In this document: positions 1 to 21,747 of the stretch, piece after piece
Position numbering within the stretch: position 1 is the stretch's first letter
Layout of the letters: the number at the start of each line of letters is the position of its first letter
DNA from: Escherichia phage vB_EcoM_4HA13
DNA: 52,401 nt
Sequence record: NC_049466.2
Strand: one strand, 5' to 3'
Program-made: the position numbers and the translations under genes
The notes under the pieces: generated by a model
The model's database searches: none
What the model saw: the letters and a program-made list of their open reading frames with translations, nothing else
Told to the model about the DNA's origin: nothing

Positions 1-117
1 TTAAATACGGTCCCTACTCCAACTTTTTCTAGCCTATCGGCTTAGAACTAACACCAAGTTAGGCGCTTCGCTTATGAGTCAACGTCAACACCACTCGCTG
101 TGAGATTAGCACTGTTC

Positions 118-143
118 TGCTACATTAGTTGGAAATGATTGTG
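118..143 (+). promoter_or_regulatory. Conserved motif copy P0 (ACATTAGTTGGAAATGATTG); candidate phage promoter
   Basis: Matches the motif repeated at 2705, 6090, 10502 and 12635; lies upstream of first genes in window. Confidence 0.45.
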
Positions 144-193
144 AGAAGGCTACGCCAACTTAATCCGTTTCATAAACTACTGGAGATACAATC

Positions 194-361
194 ATGACTT
201 ACTACGATGCAGACTTAGGCTTGGTAATGTGCGAAAGCGAACTGTCCTTAGAGATAGACGCACTTGATTGGGAACACGAGCTACCTAAAGGTGAGCCACA
301 GTGGGGCGACGACGATTACGTTTATGTAGCGCCTACTGACGAATTTGATATCCCATTCTGA
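194..361 (+). CDS. Hypothetical small acidic protein (55 aa)
   Basis: ATG at 194 preceded by GGAGA; open to TGA at 359-361; below the 60-aa cutoff of the supplied ORF track. Confidence 0.35.
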   Translation: MTYYDADLGLVMCESELSLEIDALDWEHELPKGEPQWGDDDYVYVAPTDEFDIPF

Positions 362-398
362 TACTTGTCCTACTACCTGATACACAATCTGTCCTAAC

Positions 399-2363
399 TT
401 GATAAAACTGGAGCTTACAATGACTACTATCACCACTCAAACTATGAAATCTGTTGTCCCATCAATCGCTGCATTGGTATATCGTGCCAAAGAGAAACAG
501 CAATACATGGAGCCGCATACTTGTGCACTGGCTGCACTGGCTATCTTCCACATGATGACAATGTTCACTCGTGACGATGTTATCCCTGCTGTGTCAATGG
601 TTGAACTGGCAAACGCTTCAATTAAGAAGGCGAACTCCAGCAACAACGATATGAAACAATACCACTACGTTGACCCATCAATCAATCTGATTGGTCTGGC
701 TAAGCACTTTGGCTTCCTCAACATGAATGAGGATAAGTCGTTCCAACAAACTGAAGCATGGGTTGAACTGGTTACTACCAAAGATACCAGCATCCCATTC
801 ACGACTCCAGTCACTGCTGAGAATCGTCGTAAGCCTTACGTCAAAGGTGGCAAAGTTAAGCCGTCCAAGTTGTTGCGTAATACCATCAACTTCCTGCAAT
901 CAACCGAGTACCACGTAGATGGGCAAATGGTTGCAGTCATCAAGAAGATGCTCAAAATGAAACAGTTTGCTGGTGAGGTTATGCCAGTTGCTGTGAAACA
1001 AGAGGAACATGTTTGGAATGCGGCATTGAACATGGTGATTCAAGATACTCTGTTCTCTGACTACTTTGCTGACAATCGTGGTCGTTTGTATCACGTAGCT
1101 TGTGCTGGTCCTAATCCACAATCTTCTGACTTTGCTCGTTGCTTGTATTCTCACAACATTGAGAACTTCGTAAACAAGCTGAATGAAGATGGCTCAACCA
1201 CCGAAGCATACAACATGTTCATGGCTGAGCTGGATGATATCTCTGGTGGTGAGTGGAATACTCCACGCTACTTAACTCGTGTTGCTCAGAATCCTGCTGG
1301 TGCATTGGCTCAGATTCTCAACATGAGCAAAGAACAGAATCCACCTAAGAAGCCATTCACTTATGTACGTCTGGCATTAGATTGGTTCCAGTTTGAAACA
1401 ACTGGCAAGTGTGATTCTCGTGTAGGCTTTGGCTTAGATGCTAAATGTTCAGGTACTCAATACTTGGCATTCATTGCTGGCAATATGGAAATGGCTCAAG
1501 CAACTGGCTTAGTTGACAATGAGTCCAAAGCTCGTGACCCGTACCAATTATCTTTGGTGCAACTGATGAAACTGTTGGAGAAATCTAGCATGAATCCAAC
1601 TCAGGAAATCAAGGACGCATTCTTGAATCCGAAAGCTGGACGTAATTTCATCAAGACTCCATACATGGCAGTACAGTATGGTGGTGGTAAAGCAGCACTC
1701 ACTGGTAACAAGGACTTCTGCGATTATGTAGTCAACAATCTTCAAATTGACATTACTAAACTGGAAAACTTCGCTGACCTTTGTGTTGATGCAGTTCATG
1801 CAGCATTAGGTGAAAAGATTAACCTGTTTATTAATAAAGTGCAGGAAGCTGTTCAAGCTAAATGTGCTGCATTAAACAAACCATATTTCACCTACAAGCA
1901 CACTGATGGTCAGGTTGTGCACAAACCTTGCTTCCCATCTCGTGACATTTGTGAGGCATTCAGCATTCGTGTTGACTCTCAAACTCGTGTCATCTTTGGT
2001 CAGCAAATGGAGAACAAGCCTTGGACTATCCGTGAATCAAATCCAACTTGGGAAGAATTTAAACGTACTTTCGTTGTAAACTACATTCAGGGTATTGATG
2101 CACTTGTTGCACGTACTGTTGCAAAGTATGCAGAACTTGAAGGACTTCGTGGGTTCACTTCCATTCACGACTGTTTCCGTTGCTGCTTAGCTGATGCACC
2201 ACGTATGATGGATGTGATTCGTAAGGCGTATATTGAAGTATTTGTTACCAACAATCAGTTTGAGTCTTTGAGCAAACAACTTGGTGGCATTGAGATGTAT
2301 CATGAGAATATCGTAACAGAAGAACTGCTCAACTCTGAGCATGCATATTACTTCTGTCAGTAA
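399..2363 (+). CDS. Single-subunit T7-type RNA polymerase, short form (654 aa)
   Basis: DAKCSGTQY (compare T7 motif A DGSCSGIQH), YMAVQYGG (motif B), VNYIQGIDAL (compare PNFVHSQDGSHL) and IHDCF near C-terminus (compare IHDSFGT). About 230 aa shorter than T7 RNAP, so the N-terminal domain appears absent. Confidence 0.8.
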   Translation: MIKLELTMTTITTQTMKSVVPSIAALVYRAKEKQQYMEPHTCALAALAIFHMMTMFTRDDVIPAVSMVELANASIKKANSSNNDMKQYHYVDPSINLIGLAKHFGFLNMNEDKSFQQTEAWVELVTTKDTSIPFTTPVTAENRRKPYVKGGKVKPSKLLRNTINFLQSTEYHVDGQMVAVIKKMLKMKQFAGEVMPVAVKQEEHVWNAALNMVIQDTLFSDYFADNRGRLYHVACAGPNPQSSDFARCLYSHNIENFVNKLNEDGSTTEAYNMFMAELDDISGGEWNTPRYLTRVAQNPAGALAQILNMSKEQNPPKKPFTYVRLALDWFQFETTGKCDSRVGFGLDAKCSGTQYLAFIAGNMEMAQATGLVDNESKARDPYQLSLVQLMKLLEKSSMNPTQEIKDAFLNPKAGRNFIKTPYMAVQYGGGKAALTGNKDFCDYVVNNLQIDITKLENFADLCVDAVHAALGEKINLFINKVQEAVQAKCAALNKPYFTYKHTDGQVVHKPCFPSRDICEAFSIRVDSQTRVIFGQQMENKPWTIRESNPTWEEFKRTFVVNYIQGIDALVARTVAKYAELEGLRGFTSIHDCFRCCLADAPRMMDVIRKAYIEVFVTNNQFESLSKQLGGIEMYHENIVTEELLNSEHAYYFCQ

Positions 2364-2417
2364 CAACTAGTGCCAAGGATGGCGCATCAGTTGGAATAAA
2401 CTTAATAACAAAATCAA

Positions 2418-2630
2418 TTGGAGCATATAATGAACATTCAGCAAATCAAACAAATCGAAAACTGTTTCAACCCTCACCACGTTTGTAGCATGGACGACTT
2501 GTCCCGACCTACAGTTGATGAGACAAAAGACTTCTTAGAGTTGTTGGCAGAATACAAACAAGATTCGCATGTACTATTGCACGCATTCTTACACAACTCA
2601 GGATATTTTGATACAGAAATACCATTCTAA
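2418..2630 (+). CDS. Hypothetical protein
   Basis: ATG with GGAG RBS; followed directly by a terminator hairpin. Confidence 0.5.
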   Translation: MEHIMNIQQIKQIENCFNPHHVCSMDDLSRPTVDETKDFLELLAEYKQDSHVLLHAFLHNSGYFDTEIPF

Positions 2631-2634
2631 TATT

Positions 2635-2660
2635 GGGAGCTTCGGCTCCCTATTCTTGTT
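2635..2660 (+). terminator. Intrinsic terminator candidate (GGGAGC-UUCG-GCUCCC hairpin then U-rich tract)
   Basis: Perfect 6-bp stem with UUCG tetraloop followed by tattcttgtt. Confidence 0.55.
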
Positions 2661-2700
2661 CCAATTAATCTCAGAGCTGTGTTCAATATTGGAACTCAAC

Positions 2701-2723
2701 TGTGACATTAGTTGAAATTGAAG
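2701..2723 (+). promoter_or_regulatory. Conserved motif copy P1 (GACATTAGTTGAAATTGAAG)
   Basis: Same core ACATTAGTTG as the other copies; about 45 nt after the terminator. Confidence 0.45.
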
Positions 2724-2740
2724 TAACAGAATACGGAGAA

Positions 2741-3624
2741 ATATTCTGCATGTCATTTTTTATTGGTGTACAACAATATTAGCATGACAACTTGAAGCAC
2801 AGTGTGATTATGTTTGGCAACATAGAACTCCCTGAGTTTGGCCGCTCAAAGTTCCCGTCACCATGTAGAGAGTAAGAATAAGATTCGAAACTGTTGTTTC
2901 AACTAAGCATGACTCATCCCTAAAGAAGCTGGGACAGCTCATGTAGTACCCTGCTGTTTCCGAGAGTTGCAACAGGTTAAGCATGTCCAATTGTTCCAAT
3001 ATTGTCACAGTCCTATTATAAAGGCCCACCCACAAGCCGGGACTATTTAGACATGATTGGAACTTTTGGTTCATGCGATTGTAGAGAAAGTAAATTCGGT
3101 AAGAGAGCGAATACCGGACATTGTTCCGATTACAGGTATCGCCTACGCCCCGAAATTGAGCAACAAATATTGTGACAGTATTGCCTCAACAATGGCATGT
3201 GTTGCGTAGCGACAATCGTACAATATCCGCATGTAAGAATGTGCCAAACTGTTAGGGGACTAATCACCTCGAAGATACGGTGAACGTGGCAATCTAGCAT
3301 GTGGATTCGTTACGAAGATTGTGACAATAATCAGCATGTAATATTGTAACAGTATTGTGCTAACCCGCATGAATACTGGCTCTCAGCCAAGCGAAGGCTT
3401 TATCATTGCATGTAATATTGTGACAATATTGGGATTTTTAAAAGATTTATTCTTTTTATTTATTCTTTATTGTCGGTTTACAGCACTTGCTCAGCGAACT
3501 TTGAATGTGCCAAATACGTTCGAAATTGCTGTGAGTGTGGAAACCAATTAGTTATAAATGTGCATGTGATATTGTGACAATATTCTCCATTTGGCGGGGA
3601 GTGAAGTTGCAATATTGCATGTCA
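2741..3624. repeat. Array of related about 25-bp repeats built around the palindrome AATATTGT-G-ACAATATT, often preceded by GCATGT
   Basis: Copies near 2998, 3166, 3318, 3334, 3406-3433, 3560-3587 and 3609; the 3414-3430 copy is a perfect 8-1-8 inverted repeat. No credible ORF in 2631-3837. Confidence 0.6.
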
Positions 3625-3837
3625 TTCTTAGTCTAATTGCATGAAAGATAGGGCTAATTCTGTATGAATATTGGATTCAACAGGTGTCAATGTTGATACA
3701 GAATAAGCTCCAATTTATTCAACTTGATAGTTTGGCACGTATTGTGTCACATACTCCCTGATGCTTTAAGGTGGATTAAGGAACGAAAAAGCCTCCACAA
3801 CCGTCTGACGGAGTTTAATTTAAATTAGGAGTTTAAA

Positions 3838-4092
3838 ATGGCTATTGTAAAACAATGCATGTTCCAAGACCTTCTCGATGGTCAAGTATTTAAGCACAAA
3901 GACAAACGCTGGATTAAAGTTGCAGAATCCGGCGATTACAATGCTGTAAGTTTCCACAATTCAAATCTAACTTGTGATTTTGGATTATCCTGTATTGTTG
4001 AACTTGAAGTTTCGCTTGAGCCATCTGAATGGGATTTAGTTGACGATGAAGAAGTGCAACGTTCAATCGAAGGTTACAAGGAGAATTTCTAA
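3838..4092 (+). CDS. Hypothetical protein
   Basis: ATG with AGGAG RBS; first gene after the repeat region. Confidence 0.55.
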   Translation: MAIVKQCMFQDLLDGQVFKHKDKRWIKVAESGDYNAVSFHNSNLTCDFGLSCIVELEVSLEPSEWDLVDDEEVQRSIEGYKENF

Positions 4093-4331
4093 TGCGCTAT
4101 CAACTTGTTCAACTACCTGTAACTGAGTCCTTATCATCATTTGTTCTTCTGGACAATGTAACAAAGGTTTGCAAACTACGTGACCAATCAATTTACCCAG
4201 AAGATGGTGGCAAATTGGTGTGGAAGAATGCTGCTCATAACGATGCAGTATTAAACCGTGTTATGACCTATGGTGTTGTAGTTGCAGAAGCACAAGACCC
4301 GAAATTCCTTGCTGCTCATGGATTTTCATAA
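4092..4331 (+). CDS. Hypothetical protein
   Basis: Start overlaps upstream stop (translational coupling pattern). Confidence 0.5.
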   Translation: MRYQLVQLPVTESLSSFVLLDNVTKVCKLRDQSIYPEDGGKLVWKNAAHNDAVLNRVMTYGVVVAEAQDPKFLAAHGFS

Positions 4332-4528
4332 TGAAGTGGATTGTGTATTACCGAATCATTGGCGGTATTGATGCAGTTATTCGATACCGCAATCTTGCCA
4401 TTATGCAACATGACATTGAAATGGAAAAGGATAAACAATTCGACTACATTAACGCATGTACAATCTGTGATGATGGTAGTGAAGAGATTGTGTACTCTAG
4501 TGTTGAAGAAATATTAAATGCGAAGTAA
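4331..4528 (+). CDS. Hypothetical protein
   Basis: ATGA overlap with upstream gene. Confidence 0.45.
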   Translation: MKWIVYYRIIGGIDAVIRYRNLAIMQHDIEMEKDKQFDYINACTICDDGSEEIVYSSVEEILNAK

Positions 4529-4574
4529 AGACAAAACTTTCGTGGCTGGGCGTAGTGCTCATTAAGGTAAAATC

Positions 4575-4730
4575 ATGAATGATGACAATCGTTTCACCAA
4601 TCTGTTATTAGGTCAATTAGTTAATCAAGGTGTGAAGCCGAACAAGTTCGACCGTTTCTTCAATAGTTTGGTGAAATGGTTGGTCCTTGGTTTCGTTGCA
4701 TTTATGGCATTTGGAGAATTTCTGAAATGA
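4575..4730 (+). CDS. Hypothetical small membrane protein (51 aa)
   Basis: ATG at 4575; hydrophobic C-terminal segment WLVLGFVAFMAF; below ORF-track cutoff. Confidence 0.3.
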   Translation: MNDDNRFTNLLLGQLVNQGVKPNKFDRFFNSLVKWLVLGFVAFMAFGEFLK

Positions 4731-4948
4731 GTAATCTAGCAGCATTTAAGAATCTGGTTCGTCGTGCTCAAGTTAAAGCTGATAACCAGATTTGCCTGAT
4801 TGAGAATATGCCAATTACAACAAATGTTGGAATAATTCTGTATGCAGATAAGCGCATTAAAGAATTGGAAGCTACAATTCAAGCAATGCTGGAAACAGCA
4901 GAAGGTGCTGGCATTCCACGTTGTCAATTTGACGAGGATTTAAAATGA
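4727..4948 (+). CDS. Hypothetical protein
   Basis: Internal ATG at 4727 preceded by GGAGAA; the track ORF from 4676 overlaps the upstream small gene. Confidence 0.45.
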   Translation: MSNLAAFKNLVRRAQVKADNQICLIENMPITTNVGIILYADKRIKELEATIQAMLETAEGAGIPRCQFDEDLK

Positions 4949-5115
4949 TACTCCTTCGTCATATATCTGGAACCCTTTATGTGTGCACCGATGATTATTA
5001 TTTCGCGCAATATTGGAATTCTACGCAGAAGAAATGGCGAATATCTCAAATATTGCGTTCATCTTTGCAGAATAATTGTGTAAGAATTGGAAACAATTTC
5101 CTACGCAGCAAATAA
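4945..5115 (+). CDS. Hypothetical small protein (56 aa)
   Basis: ATG at 4945 with GAGGA RBS; below ORF-track cutoff. Confidence 0.3.
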   Translation: MILLRHISGTLYVCTDDYYFAQYWNSTQKKWRISQILRSSLQNNCVRIGNNFLRSK

Positions 5116-5131
5116 CAACCGGAGAATTATC

Positions 5132-5389
5132 ATGACTCGTACAGGAATGATGCTTGTTCCGCGTAGTGGTAATTCTCTTGGGGATTTCACTCCGTATAAA
5201 GTGTATACAGTATTATCAGGAACTGGTGAAGCCAATTTGTCACCAGTTGCTTTGCGTTTAGGCCACGTTGTTCACTCAGAACGTTCATGCAATGTTCGTG
5301 ATGACAAAGGAAATATCCGTTTTGTAACTTTGGACTTCTTTCGTGAATTTAGAATGAAATCAGAGTTGGGAGATTTGTTCCATGAGTGA
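5132..5389 (+). CDS. Hypothetical protein, member of a three-gene paralog set
   Basis: Start at internal ATG with GGAGAA RBS; shares a YK-[IV]-[VY]-[AT] segment with the next two genes. Confidence 0.5.
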   Translation: MTRTGMMLVPRSGNSLGDFTPYKVYTVLSGTGEANLSPVALRLGHVVHSERSCNVRDDKGNIRFVTLDFFREFRMKSELGDLFHE

Positions 5390-5451
5390 TTTAAAGACGC
5401 CAAAGTATGTAAAGAAAGTTTGGTACGATTGTCAGACAACAGGAGAGTATT

Positions 5452-5751
5452 ATGTTATTGCGTGACAAGAAGACTGGTCGTTTAAAGAAACAGCCAGCTA
5501 AAATTGGTGACAAAGTTATTGTGTTTGGTAAATATATCCGTACAGGATTGACGGCATATAAACCATACAAAATAGTTGCAACTCAGAACTCAAAGACTGA
5601 GAACCGTAAATCGTTTGGTACGGTTTACCCACTAGAGAAGTCAAATCTTAATCGTGGATTTGGTGTATTCATCATTGATAATGATGGAGACAAAGCATTC
5701 CTGTATCTTGGCGAAGATGTATTCGGCATGACAGTGGAGAAGTTAAAATGA
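5452..5751 (+). CDS. Hypothetical protein, paralog set
   Basis: AGGAG RBS; KPYKIVATQ motif resembles KTYKIVAGR in the next gene. Confidence 0.5.
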   Translation: MLLRDKKTGRLKKQPAKIGDKVIVFGKYIRTGLTAYKPYKIVATQNSKTENRKSFGTVYPLEKSNLNRGFGVFIIDNDGDKAFLYLGEDVFGMTVEKLK

Positions 5752-6050
5752 ACAAAAATTCGGTATTGAAATATGTCGGACACGATTACGTTGCTGGGCG
5801 TCGTCAAGCATTCACCAACAACAAAACGTACAAAATTGTTGCTGGCCGTGGCGATGGTGTTCCTCGTAACAATGGAACACTTGGCGCTTATATTCAATCA
5901 GCCACCAGCTGTGTTGTTATCGATGATGATAAAAAATATCGTCAGATTGAATGCAACCACAATTGGGAACTGGTCTTCGAAAGTGACGATGTAAGTTGGT
6001 ACAAGGATGAAGGTAAATCACCAATCCCAGCGTCCCGCGAGATTTGCTAA
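5748..6050 (+). CDS. Hypothetical protein, paralog set
   Basis: ATGA overlap with upstream paralog. Confidence 0.5.
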   Translation: MNKNSVLKYVGHDYVAGRRQAFTNNKTYKIVAGRGDGVPRNNGTLGAYIQSATSCVVIDDDKKYRQIECNHNWELVFESDDVSWYKDEGKSPIPASREIC

Positions 6051-6085
6051 CATTGCAAGCTGGCAAGCGAGGCCATTAACCCAAC

Positions 6086-6110
6086 TTCAACATTAGTTGG
6101 AATTGATAGG
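6086..6110 (+). promoter_or_regulatory. Conserved motif copy P2 (CAACATTAGTTGGAATTGATAGG)
   Basis: Intergenic, upstream of the gene at 6175. Confidence 0.5.
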
Positions 6111-6174
6111 AACGAATAGTTTAGCAATGACGCTGAAACTTAAACCGTAAATTACTTAAATAAGAGAGCAAACT

Positions 6175-6525
6175 ATGTCAAACGTAAAACAGTACGACGA
6201 TACTAACACTGGTATCATTGGTAAGAATGACTACAAACAGAAAGATACACATCCTGACCAACGTGGTCGTGTGAATATTAAAGGTTTGTGGTTTTGGGTA
6301 AGTGGTTGGGACAAAATGGCAAATGGCCGTCAGTTCACTTCTCTGGCATTCACTGAAATGACTCAGGCAGAAGTTGACACTATGATGGAGAAACGTGCCG
6401 CTAAATCTGCTCCACAGCAGCCTCAACAGCAGCAACAAGCTCAGGCTCCAGCTCAGCAAACTCCACCAGCAGGTCATCCGTCTCAGGAACCGCCGATGGA
6501 CTTTGATGACGATATTCCGTTCTAA
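6175..6525 (+). CDS. Small protein with Q/P-rich linker and a C-terminus identical to the E. coli SSB tail (EPPMDFDDDIPF)
   Basis: C-terminal 12 residues match the SSB tail as I recall it; N-terminal about 75 aa is W/F-rich but not recognisably a full SSB OB domain. Confidence 0.6.
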   Translation: MSNVKQYDDTNTGIIGKNDYKQKDTHPDQRGRVNIKGLWFWVSGWDKMANGRQFTSLAFTEMTQAEVDTMMEKRAAKSAPQQPQQQQQAQAPAQQTPPAGHPSQEPPMDFDDDIPF

Positions 6526-6583
6526 TTGATTTATCGATGCCATTCCACTTCGAGTGGCATCTATTAAACAAACTGGAGGAAAT

Positions 6584-7117
6584 ATGAAAAATGCTATCGT
6601 TTGGCCAGCACTTTGGGCTGAAAACAATGTGGAAATTGGTGACAAAATATACTCTCCGGTGCATGGAAGATGTACTGTAGTCCAACTTGAAGGTGAGCAA
6701 AAGCCAGCCAAGGAGGAAGAAGTTCCAGCTTGGCAACTGAAAGTTGGTGATGAAATTTGGTATGACAATGAGTGGCGCACGGTTTTAAGTGTGTATTGCC
6801 ACATTAAGTCTTGCTACCAGGAACCAAACTTATCTCAATCAAACTCAACGATTCCACTGTCTGTAAGAATGGACAAGAATCTCAAAATCCGTCGAAAAAC
6901 TGAGAACTATATTATGTCAGTTAACCTGTTAACGTCTCACGATTTGGTCAAAGAGTTGCAAGTTAAGCTCATTGACTATTCAGCATTAAATGATGCGCCA
7001 GACCGTATCGAAGCTGTACAGTCAGTTTTCATTGACAAAGTGCCAGTAATGCACGCATTGAAGAAAGAAATTCAAGCGGTGTATGCCAAACTTGGCGAAA
7101 ATATTAAGAAGATTTAA
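6584..7117 (+). CDS. Hypothetical protein
   Basis: First ATG with GGAGG RBS inside the track ORF 6554-7117. Confidence 0.55.
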   Translation: MKNAIVWPALWAENNVEIGDKIYSPVHGRCTVVQLEGEQKPAKEEEVPAWQLKVGDEIWYDNEWRTVLSVYCHIKSCYQEPNLSQSNSTIPLSVRMDKNLKIRRKTENYIMSVNLLTSHDLVKELQVKLIDYSALNDAPDRIEAVQSVFIDKVPVMHALKKEIQAVYAKLGENIKKI

Positions 7118-7172
7118 TTAACAAAGCATCTTCCCACTTCGGAGGGTGCTTGATTAATTAACTGGAGGAGTT

Positions 7173-7385
7173 ATGGAAGTAAGTGTTCATTTACCCGGAG
7201 GCTGCTCCGGCTTAAAGATGCAAGGTGTTGTTTGTCCTGAATGTGGTCATGGTGGTGGTTCAAGCTACCCGTGTTGGTGTAGCCATTGCTACGACAAGGG
7301 TGAGAAAGTATTAATGCTTTCATCTGTGAACAAGTTCACATATATCTCCAACTGGTGTGAATCAGTTAAGAAGCAGCGAGGATAG
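7173..7385 (+). CDS. Cys-rich small protein, putative zinc binding
   Basis: GGAGG RBS; CPECGH...CWCSHC pattern. Confidence 0.5.
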   Translation: MEVSVHLPGGCSGLKMQGVVCPECGHGGGSSYPCWCSHCYDKGEKVLMLSSVNKFTYISNWCESVKKQRG

Positions 7386-7386
7386 C

Positions 7387-7719
7387 ATGTATGTTTACTA
7401 CGAAACTTACAAGTATCCAGGAGCATTCTACACTCACAGAATTACCGTGTATGAAAATGCTAATGGACGTCTACGTGCGGTACTCGAAGCTAAGTATGGA
7501 CATAAAGCTGTGTCTTGGAATAAAAGGACAGGGCGATTCTATGTTCGTGAAACTTTGCGAATTGCCAGAGTACATAAAAACAAGCCACGAAACAGTCGCA
7601 CGAGACACTTCGGTGAGTGGCACTTTGCGACGTCGAGAAACTTTGCCTTATCAATATTTGCATCAATCGACGGAGAATATGGCGAACAAACAATTTCTAG
7701 AACACCAGAGTCCTATTGA
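7387..7719 (+). CDS. Hypothetical basic protein
   Basis: ATG at 7387 after GAGGA; chosen over the overlapping alternative frame 7391-7909 because it fits the downstream gene start. Confidence 0.4.
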   Translation: MYVYYETYKYPGAFYTHRITVYENANGRLRAVLEAKYGHKAVSWNKRTGRFYVRETLRIARVHKNKPRNSRTRHFGEWHFATSRNFALSIFASIDGEYGEQTISRTPESY

Positions 7720-7784
7720 ACGGCACATGAATCAGTTTGGTTGCACACGCCAAGAGGCCAAAGATGCAACATTTGGAGAAAGAT

Positions 7785-8183
7785 ATGGCAGCATTAAAAT
7801 ACTCGAAGGGCGCGAAGCTCCTAATAGTGAGCATATTTATCAGTATTGTGGTCTTGATTTCGGCCATCTGGAACGTCGCCTCAGCGTCTTCTGGATTGAT
7901 GACGTATAAATGTGGCGGATGGACTGCTGTAATTGAGCAGCGAGAAGAAGGCCCACTTGTGGCCTCTTTCCTGCCAGAAGTTGGAACGTGGGTTGAAATT
8001 CCAGTGAACGACCGTAGTGGTGATGACATGAATTTGTACTTCATGAGTATCGAAACTCAGAAACTCGCTGTGATGGGAGTAAACGCAAAGAATCAGATAT
8101 TCTTGCAAACATTCCGCAATCATCAGGCATACAAACTCAACAAACTTGAGCACTCATTGCTCTGTAAGAGAACGCATGGCTAA
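7785..8183 (+). CDS. Hypothetical membrane protein
   Basis: ATG with GGAGAAAG RBS; hydrophobic helix LLIVSIFISIVVLISAIW. Confidence 0.45.
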   Translation: MAALKYSKGAKLLIVSIFISIVVLISAIWNVASASSGLMTYKCGGWTAVIEQREEGPLVASFLPEVGTWVEIPVNDRSGDDMNLYFMSIETQKLAVMGVNAKNQIFLQTFRNHQAYKLNKLEHSLLCKRTHG

Positions 8184-8418
8184 GCAAGCATCAAAAGAAT
8201 TCGCCATTAATGGTGTAAACTACCTGCTTTCGTCAGACTGTGAAAAACAAATCTGGCCAAAGCTGTGTGACCGTGTTGAAAAACACTTAATTTTAATTGG
8301 AAGCGAAGCAGCCAAGTACATGTATGGTCCAGCCTCTGCTACTGGAAAGACCAAAATGTGTAATTCGCTTGTTTCTTTTCAATTAACCATTAATCCAGAA
8401 GGAAATCCGTTCCGATGA
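8176..8418 (+). CDS. Hypothetical protein
   Basis: Internal ATG with AAGAG RBS. Confidence 0.4.
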   Translation: MAKQASKEFAINGVNYLLSSDCEKQIWPKLCDRVEKHLILIGSEAAKYMYGPASATGKTKMCNSLVSFQLTINPEGNPFR

Positions 8419-8705
8419 AATTGGAAGAATTACCGATTGAGCTTAAAGCTGCAACAAAAGCAGCAGAAGCGCAGCAAACTTATGTCAATCAATTGGTGGA
8501 CTTGTTTAACAAAGGCCAAACCACCATTGAGGTGTTCGATAAAAACCTCAATACTTGGACAGAAGTTCCGCTAAGCGAGTTTAATGCAATGCAGAATAAT
8601 CGTTTGACTGAACTGCTGAAACATAAAGACACTCTGCAAGGTTTATATGACCAGTTGCAAAGTCCGCTTGATGAAGCATTCAAAAATGTTCCGAAGACAG
8701 CATAA
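8415..8705 (+). CDS. Hypothetical protein
   Basis: ATGA overlap with upstream gene. Confidence 0.5.
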   Translation: MKLEELPIELKAATKAAEAQQTYVNQLVDLFNKGQTTIEVFDKNLNTWTEVPLSEFNAMQNNRLTELLKHKDTLQGLYDQLQSPLDEAFKNVPKTA

Positions 8706-9103
8706 TGTCTAACGTGAAACTTGGACAACGTTCCTTAGACAGACTCAGTGGAGTGAATAGTAGTCTAGTAGCAGTATTAAAGAAAGCGTGCGAATCCATG
8801 CCTTTTGATATTACTGTACTAGAGGGCGTTCGTTCTTATGAGCGTCAACAGGAACTATTAAAGCAGGGTGCAACAAAAGTAAGTGTTAGTCGGCACATGT
8901 CCGGCAATGCTATTGACATTGCACCATACCCAATCGACTGGAACGACACAGAACGGTTCAAAATTGTAGCGCATCATATGTTTGCTGCTGCAAAAGAGCT
9001 GGGCATTGTTATTCGTTGGGGAGGTAACTGGAGTCGTCAAGACGAAACAGTTAAGCCAACCTCCTCATTCGTTGATATGCCGCACTTCGAACTTCCGGCA
9101 TAA
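8705..9103 (+). CDS. Endolysin, peptidase M15 family (L-alanyl-D-glutamate peptidase type)
   Basis: Size and motifs (SRHMSGNAIDIAPYP, IDWND, GGNW, HFEL) resemble the T5 endolysin family. Confidence 0.6.
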   Translation: MSNVKLGQRSLDRLSGVNSSLVAVLKKACESMPFDITVLEGVRSYERQQELLKQGATKVSVSRHMSGNAIDIAPYPIDWNDTERFKIVAHHMFAAAKELGIVIRWGGNWSRQDETVKPTSSFVDMPHFELPA

Positions 9104-9121
9104 ATTCCAATAGGAGCATCT

Positions 9122-9403
9122 ATGGAATATCACAAACTACCCGAACATATTGAGCATCTAAAGGCAAAACTTGTCAAAGCTCGTGAACTTTATTCAGAAG
9201 TTGCGCACAAAGAAAATCTGCATACGGCTGGGAAGGTTGAAATCACACTCAACGCAGCTGGTTATTATGGTAAATGTTATATTTCTGGTGAAGCATTGCG
9301 TAAGCTTGTTCATGCTGAAATCGCAGAGCTGGAACAGAAACTGGGCAGCGCTGAAGAACAGCACAAAGTTTTGGAAAAGGTTGCTGTCGGGCTTATTAAA
9401 TAA
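9122..9403 (+). CDS. Hypothetical protein
   Basis: AGGAG RBS. Confidence 0.5.
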   Translation: MEYHKLPEHIEHLKAKLVKARELYSEVAHKENLHTAGKVEITLNAAGYYGKCYISGEALRKLVHAEIAELEQKLGSAEEQHKVLEKVAVGLIK

Positions 9404-9469
9404 GTATTAGTATGCCCCATACCTCAGCAAGTAACTCGATTCATGAATGTTTTAAATCTGGAGTAAATC

Positions 9470-10003
9470 ATGGATTCACAAGTAATAATTGACCAGCTTA
9501 ACCGCGAAGTCAAAGATAAAACTCTGCTTATCCGTTTACATAATTTGCAGAATGGGACTGATATTTGGATTGATGGACTGTGTTGGCGTCTGTATGACTT
9601 CGATTTAGTTGATTACTTCAAAGAAGAGTTCGGCATTGAGATTGATTTACCGTTATCTTTCGATGTTTTGAAATCAGACAATGATTTCATTAACGAAGTG
9701 TGTTTCGGCAAGGTGTTTAAGCAACAAGTTTACGATGATGTAAATGGTCTGCTGGTTAACTATTCTGAAGATGCAATCCGTGAAGGTTTAGACTTAGGAG
9801 TTTCGGCAGAAAACTTTGCAGAAGCGTACAAAGGCCATTACGCAAACTTTATTTCGTTTGCAACTGGCATCTTTGACGAACTCGAACGTCCTGAATTGCC
9901 TGAGCGCTATCGAGACTGGATTGATTACGAGAAATATGCTGAGTGTTTGGAACAACAATACTACTTCGCAAATGGACATGTATTCGATGCAACGTATCTT
10001 TAG
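9470..10003 (+). CDS. ArdA-like acidic anti-restriction protein (tentative)
   Basis: Acidic 177-aa protein; C-terminal WIDYEKYA...YYFANGHVF resembles the ArdA C-terminus as recalled from memory. Confidence 0.5.
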   Translation: MDSQVIIDQLNREVKDKTLLIRLHNLQNGTDIWIDGLCWRLYDFDLVDYFKEEFGIEIDLPLSFDVLKSDNDFINEVCFGKVFKQQVYDDVNGLLVNYSEDAIREGLDLGVSAENFAEAYKGHYANFISFATGIFDELERPELPERYRDWIDYEKYAECLEQQYYFANGHVFDATYL

Positions 10004-10253
10004 TGCGGACTGGTTACAGCCCGGTGAAGTAATTTTCCACGAACCCCGTGGGCATTATTATGAATTACTTCATCGAACTTTAATTAAGTCTGACGTAAAA
10101 GGTGGAAGCTGGTCGAAAGGCTGGTGCTACCAAGAAGTGAAATCGGTGGAAGTGTTGAAGAATTGTATTCGACATGAACCACCAGCGGGAGAAGTTTATT
10201 CCCGACCGAACGAATTGTTCGACGAAGATTGGCGACTTGTTACTCCAGTGTAG
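9972..10253 (+). CDS. Hypothetical protein
   Basis: In-frame ATGs overlapping the end of the upstream gene; start uncertain. Confidence 0.35.
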   Translation: MDMYSMQRIFSADWLQPGEVIFHEPRGHYYELLHRTLIKSDVKGGSWSKGWCYQEVKSVEVLKNCIRHEPPAGEVYSRPNELFDEDWRLVTPV

Positions 10254-10383
10254 TTCCAAGCTGGAACCTTGATGTTCCAAGCGGGTTTGTAACTCGTTTG
10301 GGACTTCTTCTGACCCTTCGGCATTAGTAGGAAGTGCATCGGAGAAGTTTCCAAATCAATTAAAGCCACAACTGCATTATACA

Positions 10384-10500
10384 GAATGTGTCAAAATTCT
10401 GTCAAGAAATATTCCAAATATTCCACGCCAAAGGAATAGCGGAATAATAAATAATTTATTCTAATTATTATTAAATTTTGGAATATTGGAATAATATTGA
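10384..10500. repeat. AT-rich iteron-like cluster (AATATTCCA / TGGAATA units)
   Basis: Tandem and inverted copies of AATATTCCA directly upstream of motif copy P3. Confidence 0.5.
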
Positions 10501-10520
10501 AACATTAGTTGGAAGAAAGA
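10498..10520 (+). promoter_or_regulatory. Conserved motif copy P3 (GAAACATTAGTTGGAAGAAAG)
   Basis: Intergenic; followed by a long hairpin. Confidence 0.5.
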
Positions 10521-10526
10521 AACAAC

Positions 10527-10614
10527 ATCTTGAAGCATTCTTGTAACTTGGTAGTCCGTCCGGCGCCGTGACGTGTGAGAATGTTCGAATCATTCTACAA
10601 GAGTGCTTCAAGAT
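10527..10614 (+). ncRNA. Long imperfect hairpin with tRNA T-arm-like apex (GAATG-TTCGAAT-CATTC); candidate RNase III site or tRNA-like element
   Basis: 19-bp inverted repeat 10527-10545 / 10596-10614 with one mismatch; apical 5-bp stem with 7-nt loop TTCGAAT. Confidence 0.4.
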
Positions 10615-11327
10615 GGAATGTTTCCATCAATGTCCCGAGTATCTTGGTATCCGTTAGCAAGAACTCACAACCTAAACTTACAGTATAATCTGGCAGGTTA
10701 TCCACATAGGTTTTACGACATGTAGGGTTATTGATTTAGTTTAGACGCTATATCAATCGAACTTAGTACGAATAAGCAAGCTGATAGGGCTGAATAATTA
10801 GAGGTAATGACCTCATGCTTATGATTGTCGGTTCACAAAATTTGTATGGCTCATGTTAATTGGTTTTGAAGGAAGTTCAACTCACAATTATAGACCTTGA
10901 GCCAACATCAAATTGCTCTTATAGAGATACAGGAGATACGTATCACCGCTATTTGTTTCGCCTGACTAACGAAACAGAGAATGTGACAAAGGCTAGTCAC
11001 TGGAGTGTCGGCCTGTATCACTATAAGGGTAATTCCTGCAAGCCAGCCAGCGCCAGCCAAGCGCTACGGCATAAAGAGTGTGATTATATGGGTGGTGGTT
11101 TGCGTGTCTCAGACGTTACGGTGTTGCGCACAATGGCGCATCCTCAGAGTTCCTGTATCGCTTGAGTTGGGGCGCAAGTCTTCACCCACATAATCATACA
11201 GAATTGGAACAAACGCTTGGCAGTGGCTTGAATTTCGGGCTATTTGTGCAAGTCTGTGGTCTACTTTCAGTGGGCTAAAAGATAGAGAAACGTCACATTA
11301 ATTGAATCGAAAATTGGAGACATTCCT

Positions 11328-11627
11328 ATGATTCGTAAACATTCAGCAAGGGTTATAAAAGCAAAGAATGTACACACCGGAGAGATTGAAGCTTACGCTT
11401 TAATTGGTGGTGTATATTTTCTTGCTGGCTGGGAGAAATCCTATAAAAATCCTGGATTCAGTTTTATCGGACTAAATGACGAAACTGCATCATTGTTCGA
11501 AGAACGTGTTAAGTATTCTGCAAGCTTCTTGGAGTATTCGTTTGGTAAATCCATCAAACAACTGCTTTCCAAATCTTTCATTCACGAGTGGACTACCAAA
11601 CAGGAAGTCTACGGAGTTCCATTTTGA
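11328..11627 (+). CDS. Hypothetical protein
   Basis: ATG with GGAG RBS after about 1 kb of non-coding DNA. Confidence 0.5.
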   Translation: MIRKHSARVIKAKNVHTGEIEAYALIGGVYFLAGWEKSYKNPGFSFIGLNDETASLFEERVKYSASFLEYSFGKSIKQLLSKSFIHEWTTKQEVYGVPF

Positions 11628-11932
11628 AACGCAAAACTTTGAAACAAAAGCTCCGTGCACAGGTTCGTAAAACAAACGAACTTCGTAAGCAGGAGCATGA
11701 ACAAGCCGGAATTACAATCAACTTTGAACTTGCAGCAATGCAGTCAGTTGGTATGGCTCACGGCATCATGGCTACAATGATTCATGCCAAGAATCTGTTG
11801 GGCGAAAATGATTCTAAATATCACGAAATTCGTGACACGGCGCAGGAACGTATTGCACAGTGCGTTGTAGCATTAGTTGGAATGGGTATTCCTGCTGATG
11901 TAGTTAATCAGCGTATTGTGCAAGGTCATTAA
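11588..11932 (+). CDS. Hypothetical protein (start uncertain, GTG)
   Basis: Open frame overlapping upstream gene end; contains an internal promoter-motif-like copy at 11871-11883. Confidence 0.35.
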   Translation: MDYQTGSLRSSILKRKTLKQKLRAQVRKTNELRKQEHEQAGITINFELAAMQSVGMAHGIMATMIHAKNLLGENDSKYHEIRDTAQERIAQCVVALVGMGIPADVVNQRIVQGH

Positions 11933-11934
11933 CT

Positions 11935-12606
11935 ATGGCATTCGAGCAAGATAAAGAAATTGCGCTCGAAACTTGTAAACAGTGGCTTGAAGATAACGAT
12001 GCAGCGTATCTTGCAAAGGAAGATGTTATCATTTTCTGGACGCATTTTAATCCTGAGTCTAAACGTGGCGAGTGGTCACGATATAAGATGAAGGAAGCCT
12101 GTCGAGTTATTAAAGCCACTCGTGCAGGTTTCGCTGCAATGCGATTCATTAAGCCAGAACTGATTATGATGGCGGCTCAGGAAACCGAACGCGCCTACAA
12201 ACAGTCAGTTAAGTCTCGTTCCACAGTTCCATCTGAGTTCTTTAACTTGGAGCGCAGCGGTCACTTCAACAATTTAGAAATGTTGACAATGTGCATGTTG
12301 CAGGAATTAGTTGGAAGGGGATGGAACGTAGAAGCAATTTGCCTTGGAAAGCTTATGAAAAAGCTATTCGAAACAAAAGGCTTTACGTCCCCAAGCCGAA
12401 TGCTACGCTGGAAGCTGCTAAGGGCAGTCGCTGAAGAAGCGGGTGTAGTTATTCGGGATAGAACGAATCGAATCACTGTAACAGGTGTTGGACGGTTTGT
12501 GGCTATTCAAATCGAAGGAGTAAATGACTCCATTAAGGTTGAGTTCACCGTTGAAGAAACGCAGGACTTAATCACCGAATCAGTCAAACGATTTAATTTG
12601 ATTTAA
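11935..12606 (+). CDS. Hypothetical protein (223 aa)
   Basis: ATG 2 nt after upstream stop. Confidence 0.55.
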   Translation: MAFEQDKEIALETCKQWLEDNDAAYLAKEDVIIFWTHFNPESKRGEWSRYKMKEACRVIKATRAGFAAMRFIKPELIMMAAQETERAYKQSVKSRSTVPSEFFNLERSGHFNNLEMLTMCMLQELVGRGWNVEAICLGKLMKKLFETKGFTSPSRMLRWKLLRAVAEEAGVVIRDRTNRITVTGVGRFVAIQIEGVNDSIKVEFTVEETQDLITESVKRFNLI

Positions 12607-12631
12607 TTCGTTTGTAAATAAGAGCAGTTCT

Positions 12632-12654
12632 GAAACATTAGTTGGAATTGATTC
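12632..12654 (+). promoter_or_regulatory. Conserved motif copy P4 (GAAACATTAGTTGGAATTGATTC)
   Basis: Best match to the consensus; intergenic, upstream of the acidic gene. Confidence 0.5.
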
Positions 12655-12729
12655 TTAGAGAAATTCTTCTCAAACTTTTATCGTAAATCGGCAAAAATCG
12701 CCGCCCAATTTATATAAGGTATTAAAGCA

Positions 12730-13089
12730 ATGGCTAAAGTAGTCACAGTAACTCAGTACGAAGCACAAGACGGTTCCCTGTTTCTGACCGAACACGAGTG
12801 TGATGCACACGATTTCAAACTGGAAAACGGTGCGAAAATCGATGTTATGGCTGAAGCGTTCCTGAACACCGTCGGTGCAATCGACCGTTCTCGTAACATG
12901 CAGAAAAATGTAATCGAAGCGTTCCTGGCCTTCACCCTGCCGCGTCTGGCTGCTGGTACTGAGCTGGAACCGGTTGAACGTACCAAGTTCGACACCCCGA
13001 AAGCAGAGAAAGAAGTGGTTGAAGGCGCAGCCGAAGTTGCAGCCGAAGCGGTTGACGGCGCAGTTGGCGACGAACCTTCAGTATTCTAA
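12730..13089 (+). CDS. Highly acidic small protein; candidate host-takeover or DNA-mimic protein
   Basis: Acidic C-terminal tail EVVEGAAEVAAEAVDGAVGDEPSVF; codon choice typical of highly expressed E. coli genes; sits between motif P4 and a hairpin. Confidence 0.6.
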   Translation: MAKVVTVTQYEAQDGSLFLTEHECDAHDFKLENGAKIDVMAEAFLNTVGAIDRSRNMQKNVIEAFLAFTLPRLAAGTELEPVERTKFDTPKAEKEVVEGAAEVAAEAVDGAVGDEPSVF

Positions 13090-13110
13090 ATCGATCTGGT
13101 CGGCGGCGCA

Positions 13111-21493: not shown

Positions 21494-21747
21494 TGGCACA
21501 GAAAGTTTTTGCGTTTTATGACGTGCAAGAAAACCGCCTACATATGTTTGTAGCAAATGCTGAACAAGCTGAAAATGATGCTGTAAACCAATTTATCGCA
21601 GCAAATGTAGATGAATTCTTTACTACTTCAAATCTGGAACAGGCTGAGAAATTGCAGTCTGTTATTTCTGAAACAACCTCCACCGACGAGCTGAAATCAG
21701 CATTAGTTGGATGGGACTTCCAACTTGAAATGATTCAAGTGGATTAA
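21493..21747 (+). CDS. Hypothetical acidic protein
   Basis: ATGA overlap with polymerase end; contains a promoter-motif-like copy at 21701-21711. Confidence 0.45.
   Translation: MAQKVFAFYDVQENRLHMFVANAEQAENDAVNQFIAANVDEFFTTSNLEQAEKLQSVISETTSTDELKSALVGWDFQLEMIQVD

What the first reader, a model, noticed from the sequence alone, without database searches (positions are those of the whole stretch)
399..2363. RNA polymerase is a short T7-type enzyme lacking the N-terminal domain
Catalytic motifs are clear, but the protein is 654 aa compared with about 880 for T7 RNAP, so the N-terminal promoter-binding domain seems absent. Short T7-type polymerases such as N4 RNAP II need accessory factors, and in N4 host SSB is an activator of the virion polymerase. 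The SSB-tail protein at 6175 may be relevant here.
Basis: partly seen in the sequence, partly recalled or inferred. Interest (0 to 1): 0.55.

Follow-up and report, generated by a model that had tools for sequence, protein, structure and literature searches.

The report
Compact T7-family phage RNA polymerase
This gene is the already annotated single-subunit RNA polymerase of the coliphage vB_EcoM-4HA13 (family Chaseviridae); it really is about 235 residues shorter than T7's enzyme, because its N-terminal domain and thumb are cut down rather than missing, and nobody has yet tested whether it needs helper proteins.

Summary
The ORF is real. The true start is almost certainly ATG 420 (GGAG at 409-412), giving 647 aa, not TTG 399 (654 aa). 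That 647-aa sequence is exactly QEM42972.1, 'RNA polymerase [Escherichia phage vB_EcoM_4HA13]', so the window is that published 52,401-bp genome.

The protein is 236 aa shorter than T7 RNAP:
- about 164 aa are lost from the N-terminal domain;
- about 39 aa from the thumb;
- about 30 aa from the fingers.

The N-terminal domain is halved, not absent. About 118 aa fold as a winged-helix-like module, followed by a conserved basic linker. It shows no detectable sequence similarity to T7's domain. The layout is colinear with the two-subunit N4 RNAP II, but in sequence the core is closer to T7.

No upstream exon, frameshift partner or separate N-terminal subunit exists, and there is no N4 gp1/gp2 homologue.

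A strand-specific motif, CATTAGTTG (8 copies on + and 0 on -), is conserved across relatives. It is the likely promoter, already predicted for phiEcoM-GJ1.

Cofactor dependence and a role for the SSB-tail protein remain untested; the evidence is only circumstantial.

The parts
420..2363 (+).
409..412 (+). Shine-Dalgarno GGAG for the ATG at 420
   Evidence: same TGGAG..ATG arrangement reported for ST32 ORF1 (PMC6266442)
420..773 (+). Residues 1-118: reduced N-terminal module, helices plus one beta-hairpin (100-110), winged-helix-like; the least conserved part of the protein
774..875 (+). Residues 119-152: conserved basic linker (ENRRKPYVKGGKVKPSK, R136 invariant, pI 10.4), placed opposite T7 ~286-316 by a forced global alignment
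   Evidence: (low-confidence alignment to T7 ANGRRPLALVRTHSKK)
876..1070 (+). Residues 153-217: end of the N-terminal domain plus a shortened thumb (T7 326-411 = 86 aa aligns to 162-208 = 47 aa)
1071..1091 (+). T/DxxGR motif DNRGRLY (218-224)
1425..1475 (+). Motif A (GFGLDAKCSGTQY; catalytic D340)
1635..1694 (+). Motif B / O-helix (R408, K412, Y420, G421)
1929..2054 (+). Residues 504-545: counterpart of the T7 specificity loop (T7 739-770); conserved FSIR...FG...W; T7 R746 -> R517
   Evidence: beta strands 507-538 in the model
2160..2189 (+). Motif C (SIHDCFR; H583, D584)
122..138 (+). Promoter-like motif ACATTAGTTGGAAATGA upstream of the RNAP operon
   Evidence: homologous position in GJ1, SA91KD and Mangalitsa
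194..361 (+). Small acidic ORF (55 aa, ends DEFDIPF) inserted between the leader and the RNAP gene; QEM42971.1
   Evidence: no homologue in the 16 non-Sabourvirus relatives checked; duplicated RBS/start
2418..2630 (+). Small ORF (70 aa, ends YFDTEIPF), last gene of the RNAP operon; phrog_20790
2635..2650 (+). Terminator-like GC hairpin followed by a T-rich tail, closing the RNAP operon
2705..2721 (+). Promoter-like motif; syntenic with 'putative phage promoter 1' of GJ1
6090..6106 (+). Promoter-like motif 69 nt upstream of the SSB-like gene; syntenic with GJ1 'putative phage promoter 3'
6175..6525 (+). SSB-tail protein (116 aa; last 12 residues identical to E. coli SSB); annotated phage SSB QEM42984.1; candidate cofactor only by circumstance
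10502..10518 (+). Promoter-like motif
12635..12651 (+). Promoter-like motif (best PWM score), 79 nt upstream of gene 12730
21700..21716 (+). Promoter-like motif in the intergenic gap before gene 21774. Further copies of the core lie at 11871 and 17911, inside ORFs.

Best explanation
Gene 420-2363 encodes the phage's own transcriptase: a complete, single-chain, catalytically competent member of the T7 single-subunit RNA polymerase family in a cut-down format.

**Shown**
- Thumb, palm, fingers and all catalytic residues are present.
- The thumb is about half length.
- The N-terminal region is 161 aa instead of 325 aa. It consists of a roughly 118-aa winged-helix-like module and a conserved basic linker.
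- A specificity-loop counterpart is retained.
- Nothing elsewhere in the genome supplies the missing parts.

**Inferred**
- It initiates at the strand-specific, mostly intergenic motif aCATTAGTTGGAAtTGA, which precedes the RNAP operon itself, the SSB-like gene and other gene blocks (about 65% likely).
- The invariant part of that motif is only a 9-mer, and T7's AT-rich recognition loop has no detectable counterpart. Recognition therefore probably rests on the specificity loop and the basic linker.
- Like N4 RNAP II, the small N-terminal module probably does not undergo the large T7-type refolding.

**Open**
- I put about 50% on the enzyme needing at least one helper for promoter opening or recruitment.
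- I put about 20% on that helper being the SSB-like protein at 6175.
For: - **Identity:** exact match to QEM42972.1 'RNA polymerase' of vB_EcoM_4HA13. The window is that genome: same length, same GC, and both published peptides are encoded.
- **Family and fold:**
- **Reduced N-terminal region and thumb:**
- **Nothing supplied in trans:** the frame opens at 381. ORF 194-361 ends before that, in another frame. No other ORF in six frames resembles T7's N-terminal domain or N4 gp15/gp16. The right end of the window encodes baseplate, holin and endolysin proteins.
- **Promoter motif in the window:** the 17-mer occurs 7 times against 0.33 expected. CATTAGTTG occurs 8 times on + and 0 on -. PWM hits are 18 on + versus 1 on -.
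- **Promoter motif in relatives:** the core is the top strand-biased 9-mer in relatives whose RNAP identity falls to 37-50%. The downstream half changes in concert by genus (GGAATTGA here, GGATGTGA in Carltongylesvirus), as expected for a phage-polymerase promoter.
- **Prior annotation:** the motif is already annotated as 'putative phage promoter' in GJ1 and SA91KD.
- **Loop conservation:** the specificity-loop strands (FSIR..FG..W) are conserved, consistent with the invariant core.
Against: - No biochemistry exists for any Chaseviridae RNAP. ICTV states that the promoters are not yet identified.
- The motif also precedes the RNAP gene itself, and I found no sigma-70-like promoter in the 193 nt upstream. 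First-round expression is therefore unexplained.
- The winged-helix-like module is near neutral (pI 6.4), and its putative recognition helix is hydrophobic and poorly conserved. That argues against it reading DNA.
- The specificity-loop region is slightly acidic (pI 5.2), as reported for the factor-dependent N4 RNAP II (PMC7145618).
- The structural statements rest on a predicted model, and the tools gave no residue-level superposition.
Confidence: 0.72

Rival explanations
1. One reading: the enzyme works like N4 RNAP II. It cannot use duplex promoters alone, and the SSB-tail protein at 6175 (or host SSB) binds melted promoter DNA and recruits or activates it.
For: - The layout is colinear with gp15+gp16, with a truncated N-terminal domain and thumb.
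- The invariant promoter core is compact, at 9 nt.
- The N-terminal module is neutral and the specificity-loop region is acidic.
- N4 RNAP II and LUZ7 RNAP II both depend on small ssDNA-binding cofactors.
- The SSB-like gene is the only early-region gene present beside the RNAP in all 16 relatives checked, and its tail is conserved.
- It has a promoter-like motif upstream.
- Its N-terminal ~75 aa is not a recognisable OB fold.
Against: - There is no homologue of N4 gp1 or gp2.
- In sequence the core is far closer to autonomous T7-like RNAPs than to N4 gp16. The gp15 family shows no significant similarity.
- Universal conservation of an SSB is expected from replication alone.
- The E. coli-type tail points to recruitment of host SSB partners, not of an RNAP.
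- The motif as a whole carries about 27 bits over 20 nt, more like a duplex T7-type promoter than N4's AT-rich -7..+2 element.
Confidence: 0.2
2. It is a fully autonomous T7-like enzyme. The small N-terminal module is a divergent but functionally equivalent promoter-binding and melting domain, so no cofactor is needed.
For: - A forced global profile alignment places query 51-152 opposite T7 206-316. This puts the invariant N75 region opposite the intercalating hairpin and W114 opposite the T7 PPKPW tryptophan.
- The genome has a T7-like logic: one strand, an early RNAP gene and repeated consensus promoters.
- The core has strong sequence affinity to phrog_414.
Against: - The alignment over the N-terminus has near-zero confidence.
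- The similarity to T7 is no better than to generic winged-helix proteins.
- No counterpart of the AT-rich recognition loop was found.
- The hairpin tip (NEDKS) is acidic and variable in length across the family.
- The smallest autonomous ssRNAPs I know of are about 780 aa (own knowledge).
Confidence: 0.4
3. The missing N-terminal domain is supplied by an upstream exon, a frameshift fusion with ORF 194-361, or a separate subunit encoded elsewhere.
For: Some relatives are annotated with longer products, such as Mangalitsa at 704 aa and P0025. N4 RNAP II shows that split enzymes exist.
Against: - The RNAP frame is closed upstream of 381. ORF 194-361 stops at 361 in another frame and is only 55 aa.
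- That ORF is absent from all 16 non-Sabourvirus relatives checked.
- No ORF in six frames resembles T7's N-terminal domain or gp15.
- The extensions in longer relatives are unrelated, low-complexity or upstream-ORF read-ins.
- The internal RBS and ATG are conserved.
Confidence: 0.02

Closest known systems
RNA polymerases of Chaseviridae (e.g. phiEcoM-GJ1 gp01, ST32 ORF1, Erwinia phage vB_EamM-Y2)
   Same: It belongs to the same family. Amino-acid identity is 65-83% and the length is the same (630-648 aa). The position is the same: first large gene, inside the ~3 kb terminal repeat. The CATTAGTTG promoter-like motif is also shared. The protein itself is the GenBank entry QEM42972.1.
   Different: Nothing essential differs. 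This phage (genus Sabourvirus) has a 55-aa ORF inserted just before the RNAP start, and the downstream half of its motif is GGAATTGA rather than GGATGTGA. The papers I could read call the enzyme 'large' and 'very similar to T7' and do not mention the reduced N-terminal domain.
Bacteriophage T7 RNA polymerase (883 aa; PDB 1CEZ, 1QLN, 3E2E)
   Different: It is 236 aa shorter. The N-terminal region is 161 versus 325 aa with no sequence similarity. No AT-rich recognition loop was found, and an intercalating hairpin is not established. The thumb is 47 versus 86 aa. T7 H784 is an invariant Gln here. The promoter is unrelated.
Bacteriophage N4 RNA polymerase II (gp15 269 aa + gp16 404 aa; PDB 6DT7)
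   Different: This enzyme is one chain, not two. Similarity to the gp15 family is not significant. In sequence the core is closer to T7. There are no gp1/gp2 cofactor homologues. The candidate promoter is longer and not simply AT-rich. Cofactor dependence here is unknown.
Mitochondrial RNA polymerases (yeast Rpo41, human POLRMT)
   Different: The mitochondrial enzymes are much larger, with N-terminal extensions, and require Mtf1 or TFB2M/TFAM (Table 1 of PMC4496689). No homologues of those factors were looked for or expected here.

Membership tests
T7-like single-subunit RNA polymerase family (Pfam PF00940) | Conserved T/DxxGR motif and motifs A, B and C with catalytic Asp/Asp, Lys and Tyr | tested here: met
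   DNRGRLY 218-224; D340; R408/K412/Y420/G421; H583/D584. All are invariant in 44 homologues. PF00940 matches at E 2e-13, above the gathering score.
T7-like single-subunit RNA polymerase family (Pfam PF00940) | Right-hand palm/fingers/thumb fold shared with T7, N4 vRNAP and mitochondrial RNAPs | tested here: met
T7-like single-subunit RNA polymerase family (Pfam PF00940) | Specificity loop (beta-hairpin in the fingers that reads promoter bases) | tested here: inconclusive
   A 40-aa segment (504-543) aligns to T7 739-770, with R517 opposite R746, and is predicted as beta strands. Whether it contacts DNA cannot be tested here. Its net charge is slightly negative.
T7 RNAP proper (Autographiviridae-type, autonomous enzyme) | N-terminal domain of about 325 aa with an AT-rich recognition loop, an intercalating hairpin and a refolding subdomain | tested here: not met
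   Only 161 residues occupy this position. phrog_414 profile positions 1-372 are unmatched. Profile comparisons to T7's N-terminal domain and to the PDB are not significant. The fold is winged-helix-like.
T7 RNAP proper (Autographiviridae-type, autonomous enzyme) | Promoter-specific initiation on duplex DNA without any cofactor | not testable with these tools
   This needs in vitro transcription with purified protein.
N4 RNAP II-type minimal polymerase | Truncated N-terminal domain and truncated thumb, total about 670 aa | tested here: met
   647 aa in total. The thumb is 47 aa and the N-terminal region 161 aa. The colinear placement with gp15 comes from a non-significant alignment. The description of N4 RNAP II is in PMC4496689.
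N4 RNAP II-type minimal polymerase | Heterodimer of two gene products split between DxxGR and motif A | tested here: not met
   There is a single uninterrupted ORF, and all 103 homologues are single chains.
N4 RNAP II-type minimal polymerase | Sequence kinship with gp15 and gp16 | tested here: inconclusive
   gp16: hhalign 94%, E 1e-7; PDB 6dt7_B E 0.0015. gp15 family: 1.9% probability. T7-like profiles score far better.
N4 RNAP II-type minimal polymerase | Dependence on the ssDNA-binding cofactor gp2 (and gp1), or an analogue such as Drc | tested here: inconclusive
   tblastn finds no gp1/gp2 homologue. An analogue cannot be excluded, with the SSB-like protein at 6175 as a candidate. Functional dependence is not testable here.
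Chaseviridae RNA polymerase (family hallmark gene) | Orthology with phiEcoM-GJ1 gp01 and position as the first major gene in the long terminal repeat of a 52-56 kb one-strand myovirus genome | tested here: met
   75-83% identity to annotated Chaseviridae RNAPs and shared synteny. All genes lie on the + strand. The published DTR is 3120 bp. The sequence exactly matches the GenBank entry.

The most novel reading that the evidence does not exclude
Chaseviridae polymerases are the smallest single-chain members of the T7 family. They have swapped T7's promoter-binding domain for a small winged-helix-like module that recruits a helper rather than reading DNA. That helper would be the universally co-conserved 13-kDa 'SSB', whose DNA-binding part is not a recognisable OB fold, which carries the exact E. 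coli SSB tail, and which was detected in the phage preparation. It would open the compact CATTAGTTG promoter, so one protein would couple replication, host-factor capture and transcription, as N4 does with three separate SSBs.
Probability: 0.12. Interest if true: 0.6.

Novelty: already known. Interest (0 to 1): 0.3.

Why it matters
The gene and its family have been known since phiEcoM-GJ1 (2008), and the gene serves as a taxonomic marker for Chaseviridae, so there is no discovery of a new entity. The under-described point is the format. [quoted passage not shown] The papers I could read instead call it 'large' and 'very similar to T7'.

If it proves autonomous on a roughly 17-20-bp promoter, it would be a very compact orthogonal polymerase for synthetic biology and in vitro transcription. 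If it proves factor-dependent, it would be a single-chain model for how minimal polymerases outsource promoter melting. Either outcome would also settle ICTV's open point that Chaseviridae promoters are not yet identified.

Tried and rejected
- **Upstream exon, frameshift or longer start.** Rejected. The frame is closed before 381, ORF 194-361 is in another frame and ends at 361, and the 654-aa form is not in the databases.
- **Separate N-terminal subunit elsewhere in the genome.** Rejected. phmmer with T7's N-terminal domain, full T7, N4 gp15 and gp16 against all six-frame ORFs hits only the RNAP ORF. The right end of the window encodes baseplate, holin and endolysin proteins.
- **N4 gp1/gp2 homologues.** None found.
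- **Sequence homology of the N-terminal 170 aa.** Not significant to T7's N-terminal domain, to any PDB chain, or to the N4 gp15 family. A search of 1.84 billion representatives found the domain only in this narrow RNAP family: 26 hits and no ~270-aa split versions.
- **Reading the CATTAGTTG motif as a sigma-70 promoter.** Rejected. No acceptable -35/-10 pair is in register at the copies I inspected by eye, and the sigma-70 scan reports no + strand site at the copies within 1-13500. Its strand bias, its conservation and its concerted genus-level change fit a phage-polymerase promoter.
- **A sigma-70 promoter upstream of the RNAP operon.** Not found. GJ1's annotated promoter maps to the window's right end and is not conserved there.
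- **Rfam families in 1-14000.** None.
- **Retrieving the GJ1 paper (PMC2223254) and the N4 RNAP II structure paper (PMC6120196).** Neither is held. Their content is cited only through other papers or from my own memory.
- **Residue-level structural superposition.** Not possible. The tools return scores only, and no model coordinates reach the Python sandbox.
Full report
**1. What the window is.** Megablast of the first 6.6 kb finds only Chaseviridae myoviruses (Carltongylesvirus, Erwinia Y2-like and others) at about 76% identity. The matched gene is annotated as RNA polymerase in most of them.

The window is 52,401 bp with 42.8% G+C. These are exactly the figures published for Escherichia phage vB_EcoM-4HA13 (genus Sabourvirus; PMC9699118). 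Both tryptic peptides quoted in that paper are encoded at the stated residues of the capsid and tail-completion genes.

The 647-aa product of 420-2363 is identical to QEM42972.1/YP_009884058.1, 'RNA polymerase [Escherichia phage vB_EcoM_4HA13]', carried on a 52,401-bp contig. The finding therefore concerns an already annotated gene of a published phage. That gene is one of the two markers used to define the family.

**2. Check of the observation.**
- The ORF 399..2363 (TTG, 654 aa) exists.
- The reading frame opens only at 381.
- The ATG at 420 has a GGAG eight bases upstream. Homologues are 630-647 aa. GenBank uses this start, and the 654-aa form is not in the protein collection. The protein is therefore 647 aa and 73.1 kDa.
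- Pfam PF00940 matches at E 2e-13 over the C-terminal two thirds.
- A 44-sequence family profile aligns to T7 RNAP 317-882 with 98% probability.
- The residue mapping is: T7 D421/R425 -> D218/R222, D537 -> D340, R627/K631/Y639/G640 -> R408/K412/Y420/G421, H811/D812 -> H583/D584. All of these are invariant in the family.

**3. Where the missing residues are.** I use the T7 domain boundaries from established knowledge: N-terminal domain 1-325, thumb 326-411, fingers 554-784.

| Region | T7 | This protein | Difference |
|---|---|---|---|
| N-terminal domain | 1-325 | 1-161 | -164 aa |
| Thumb | 326-411 | 162-208 | -39 aa |
| Motif A Asp to the T7 H784 position (mostly fingers) | 537-784 | 340-557 | about -30 aa |
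| C-terminal part | — | — | -8 aa |

Even so, 161 residues remain there.

**4. Structure.** AlphaFold2 on the 44-sequence alignment gives a confident model (pLDDT 91.9, pTM 0.86).
- Foldseek's best PDB hits are T7 RNAP complexes (E 7e-19).
- The N-terminal 170 residues, modelled alone, also fold (pLDDT 84). The elements are helices 6-27, 32-46, 57-73 and 87-96, a beta-hairpin at 100-110, helix 112-118, then a basic stretch and helix 150-161.

So the N-terminal region is a real, folded, winged-helix-like module. It resembles the N-terminal parts of T7 RNAP and N4 RNAP II about as well as it resembles generic winged-helix domains. The tools return no residue-level superposition, so I could not decide which T7 sub-elements it corresponds to.

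**5. Sequence tests of the N-terminal region.**
- A profile of residues 1-170 finds nothing significant in the PDB.
- It is not significantly similar to T7 1-343 or to a 24-member N4 gp15 family profile.
- Against 1.84 billion representative proteins it hits only 26. Leaving aside truncated or short entries, the hits are RNAPs of 609-901 aa from this same family, and none is an N4-type ~270-aa subunit.
- A forced global alignment places query 51-152 opposite T7 206-316. This puts the invariant N75 region opposite the intercalating hairpin, W114 opposite the tryptophan of T7's PPKPW, and ENRRKP opposite ANGRRP. The confidence is near zero.
- The linker 119-152 (RRKPYVKGGKVKPSK; pI 10.4; R136 invariant) is better conserved than the winged-helix-like module. 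That module is the least conserved part of the protein (mean 0.40), is near neutral (pI 6.4), and has a hydrophobic, poorly conserved 'recognition' helix.

Verdict on this point: T7's promoter-binding domain as such is not detectable, but the region is reduced or remodelled rather than absent.

**6. Comparison with N4 RNAP II.**
- gp15 (269 aa) plus gp16 (404 aa) total 673 aa.
- DxxGR is at 236 in gp15 and at 218 here.
- A non-significant hhalign alignment pairs query 134-224 with gp15 135-242, which leaves 133 and 134 residues in front of it.
- gp16 aligns at 94% probability.
- The review PMC4496689 describes N4 RNAP II as a minimal enzyme with a truncated thumb and N-terminal domain. It needs gp1 and the ssDNA-binding gp2, while host SSB serves the virion polymerase.
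- PMC7145618 relays the proposal from the N4 RNAP II structure paper that its N-terminal domain recruits cofactors and that its specificity loop is too acidic to bind DNA.

The architectural analogy is therefore sound. It does not amount to membership:
- This enzyme is a single chain.
- It scores far better against T7-like phage RNAPs (phrog_414, E 4e-88) than against the family phrog_2051, which I take to be gp16-like (E 3e-12).
- The phage has no gp1 or gp2 homologue.

**7. No missing piece elsewhere.**
- ORF 194-361 is 55 aa, lies in another frame and stops 20 nt before the RNAP frame opens.
- It is absent from all 16 non-Sabourvirus relatives examined, although near-identical copies occur in other 4HA13-like contigs.
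- It appears to have been inserted at the RNAP start together with a duplicated RBS/start.
- No six-frame ORF resembles T7's N-terminal domain or gp15.
- The window's right end encodes baseplate, holin and endolysin proteins.
- The longer products in some relatives (704-901 aa) carry unrelated N-terminal read-ins.

**8. Likely promoter.**
- A 17-mer, ACATTAGTTGGAATTGA, occurs 7 times at up to 3 mismatches against 0.33 expected.
- The 9-mer CATTAGTTG occurs 8 times on the + strand and never on the - strand.
- A PWM gives 18 + strand hits against 1 - strand hit.
- The five ACATTAGTTG copies are intergenic. Those before annotated genes lie 56-80 nt upstream of the start codon: before the RNAP operon, before the SSB-like gene and before gene 12730.
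- The same core is the top strand-biased 9-mer in relatives whose RNAP is only 37-50% identical.
- The downstream half differs in concert between genera (GGAATTGA here, GGATGTGA in Carltongylesvirus).
- It is the 'putative phage promoter' already annotated in GJ1 and SA91KD and discussed for PP101.
- ICTV notes that Chaseviridae promoters have not been identified experimentally.
- The specificity-loop counterpart keeps conserved FSIR...FG...W residues, which fits an invariant core.
- I found no sigma-70-like promoter ahead of the RNAP operon, so how the gene is first expressed is unexplained.

**9. The SSB-tail protein.**
- The product of 6175-6525 is the annotated phage SSB (QEM42984.1; phrog_7364 E 2e-38).
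- Its similarity to E. coli SSB is confined to the linker and the tip: the last 12 residues, EPPMDFDDDIPF, are identical.
- The N-terminal ~75 aa matches no Pfam family or PDB chain.
- The tail is conserved in nearly all relatives.
- The gene is the only early-region gene found near the RNAP in all 16 loci checked.
- The 4HA13 paper lists it among 15 proteins detected in the phage preparation.

These facts make it a reasonable cofactor candidate, but each is also what a core replication SSB would show. I found no direct link to the polymerase.

**10. Verdict.** This is the known Chaseviridae RNA polymerase. 'Lacking the N-terminal domain' should read 'N-terminal domain halved and remodelled, thumb halved'. 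The analogy to N4 RNAP II is architectural only. Cofactor dependence and the SSB link are open and experimentally testable.

- Novelty: already known.
- Interest: modest (0.3).

Noticed in passing
window 2750-3830: About 1.1 kb of non-coding DNA follows the RNAP operon and spans the published terminal-repeat boundary (~3120). It holds at least 6 copies of a palindromic 17-mer, AATATTGTGACAATATT, often preceded by GCATGT (2998, 3166, 3340, 3414, 3569, and a weaker one at 3314). The same element sits just upstream of the promoter-like motif in GJ1, SA91KD and Mangalitsa. It could be an operator array or an origin. There is no Rfam hit.
   Followed up: partly
window 194-361, 2418-2630, 6175-6525 (also 21774-22637): Three acidic proteins end in the E. 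coli SSB tip motif (DEFDIPF, YFDTEIPF, MDFDDDIPF), and two of them flank the RNAP gene. A fourth protein ends in TSNIPF. The 2418 tail is conserved in Mangalitsa and flopper, and the SSB tail in nearly all relatives. These may be mimics that capture or block host SSB-interacting proteins.
   Followed up: partly
window 179-429: ORF 194-361 looks like an insertion at the RNAP start. The leader 2-193 aligns to the leader of GJ1's RNAP, and the RBS/start CTGGAG..TACAA..ATGACT occurs twice (179-199 and 406-425). Among the 16 non-Sabourvirus loci compared, the ORF has no homologue, although near-identical copies occur in other 4HA13-like contigs.
   Followed up: yes
window 1-193 and 52335-52401: There is no sigma-70-like promoter ahead of the RNAP operon at the physical left end. 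The sigma-70 promoter annotated in GJ1 maps to the window's right end and is not conserved there. How the polymerase gene is first transcribed is unclear.
   Followed up: partly
window 6175-6525: The annotated SSB matches E. coli SSB only in the linker and tip. Its N-terminal ~75 aa has no recognisable OB-fold signature. The 4HA13 paper's Table S2 lists it (13,146 Da, 62% coverage) among the proteins detected in the phage preparation, so it may be virion-associated or a sticky contaminant.
   Followed up: partly
window 2088-2090 (residue Q557): T7 H784 aligns to a Gln that is invariant in all 44 family members. From my own knowledge, H784 is implicated in substrate selection in T7.
   Followed up: no
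L024, L026, L028 and other loci (relatives): The CATTAGTTG core stays invariant in phages whose RNAP has diverged to 37-50% identity. This conservation seems unusual to me for a phage-polymerase promoter. L027 and L035/L036 instead carry other highly repeated + strand motifs (GCTACGCAGACCTGC; GGTATACAAGG, TAAAGGTGAT).
   Followed up: partly
L001 (Mangalitsa) 211-2325; P0025: Some records annotate the RNAP as 704 aa by starting at an upstream in-frame ATG. The 57-aa extension is unrelated to anything in this window, and the internal RBS and ATG are conserved, so this is probably an annotation artefact.
   Followed up: partly
window 9470-10003 and 13472-13903: An ArdA-like antirestriction protein and an HNH-AP2 homing-endonuclease-like ORF lie in the early/middle region (Pfam).
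   Followed up: no
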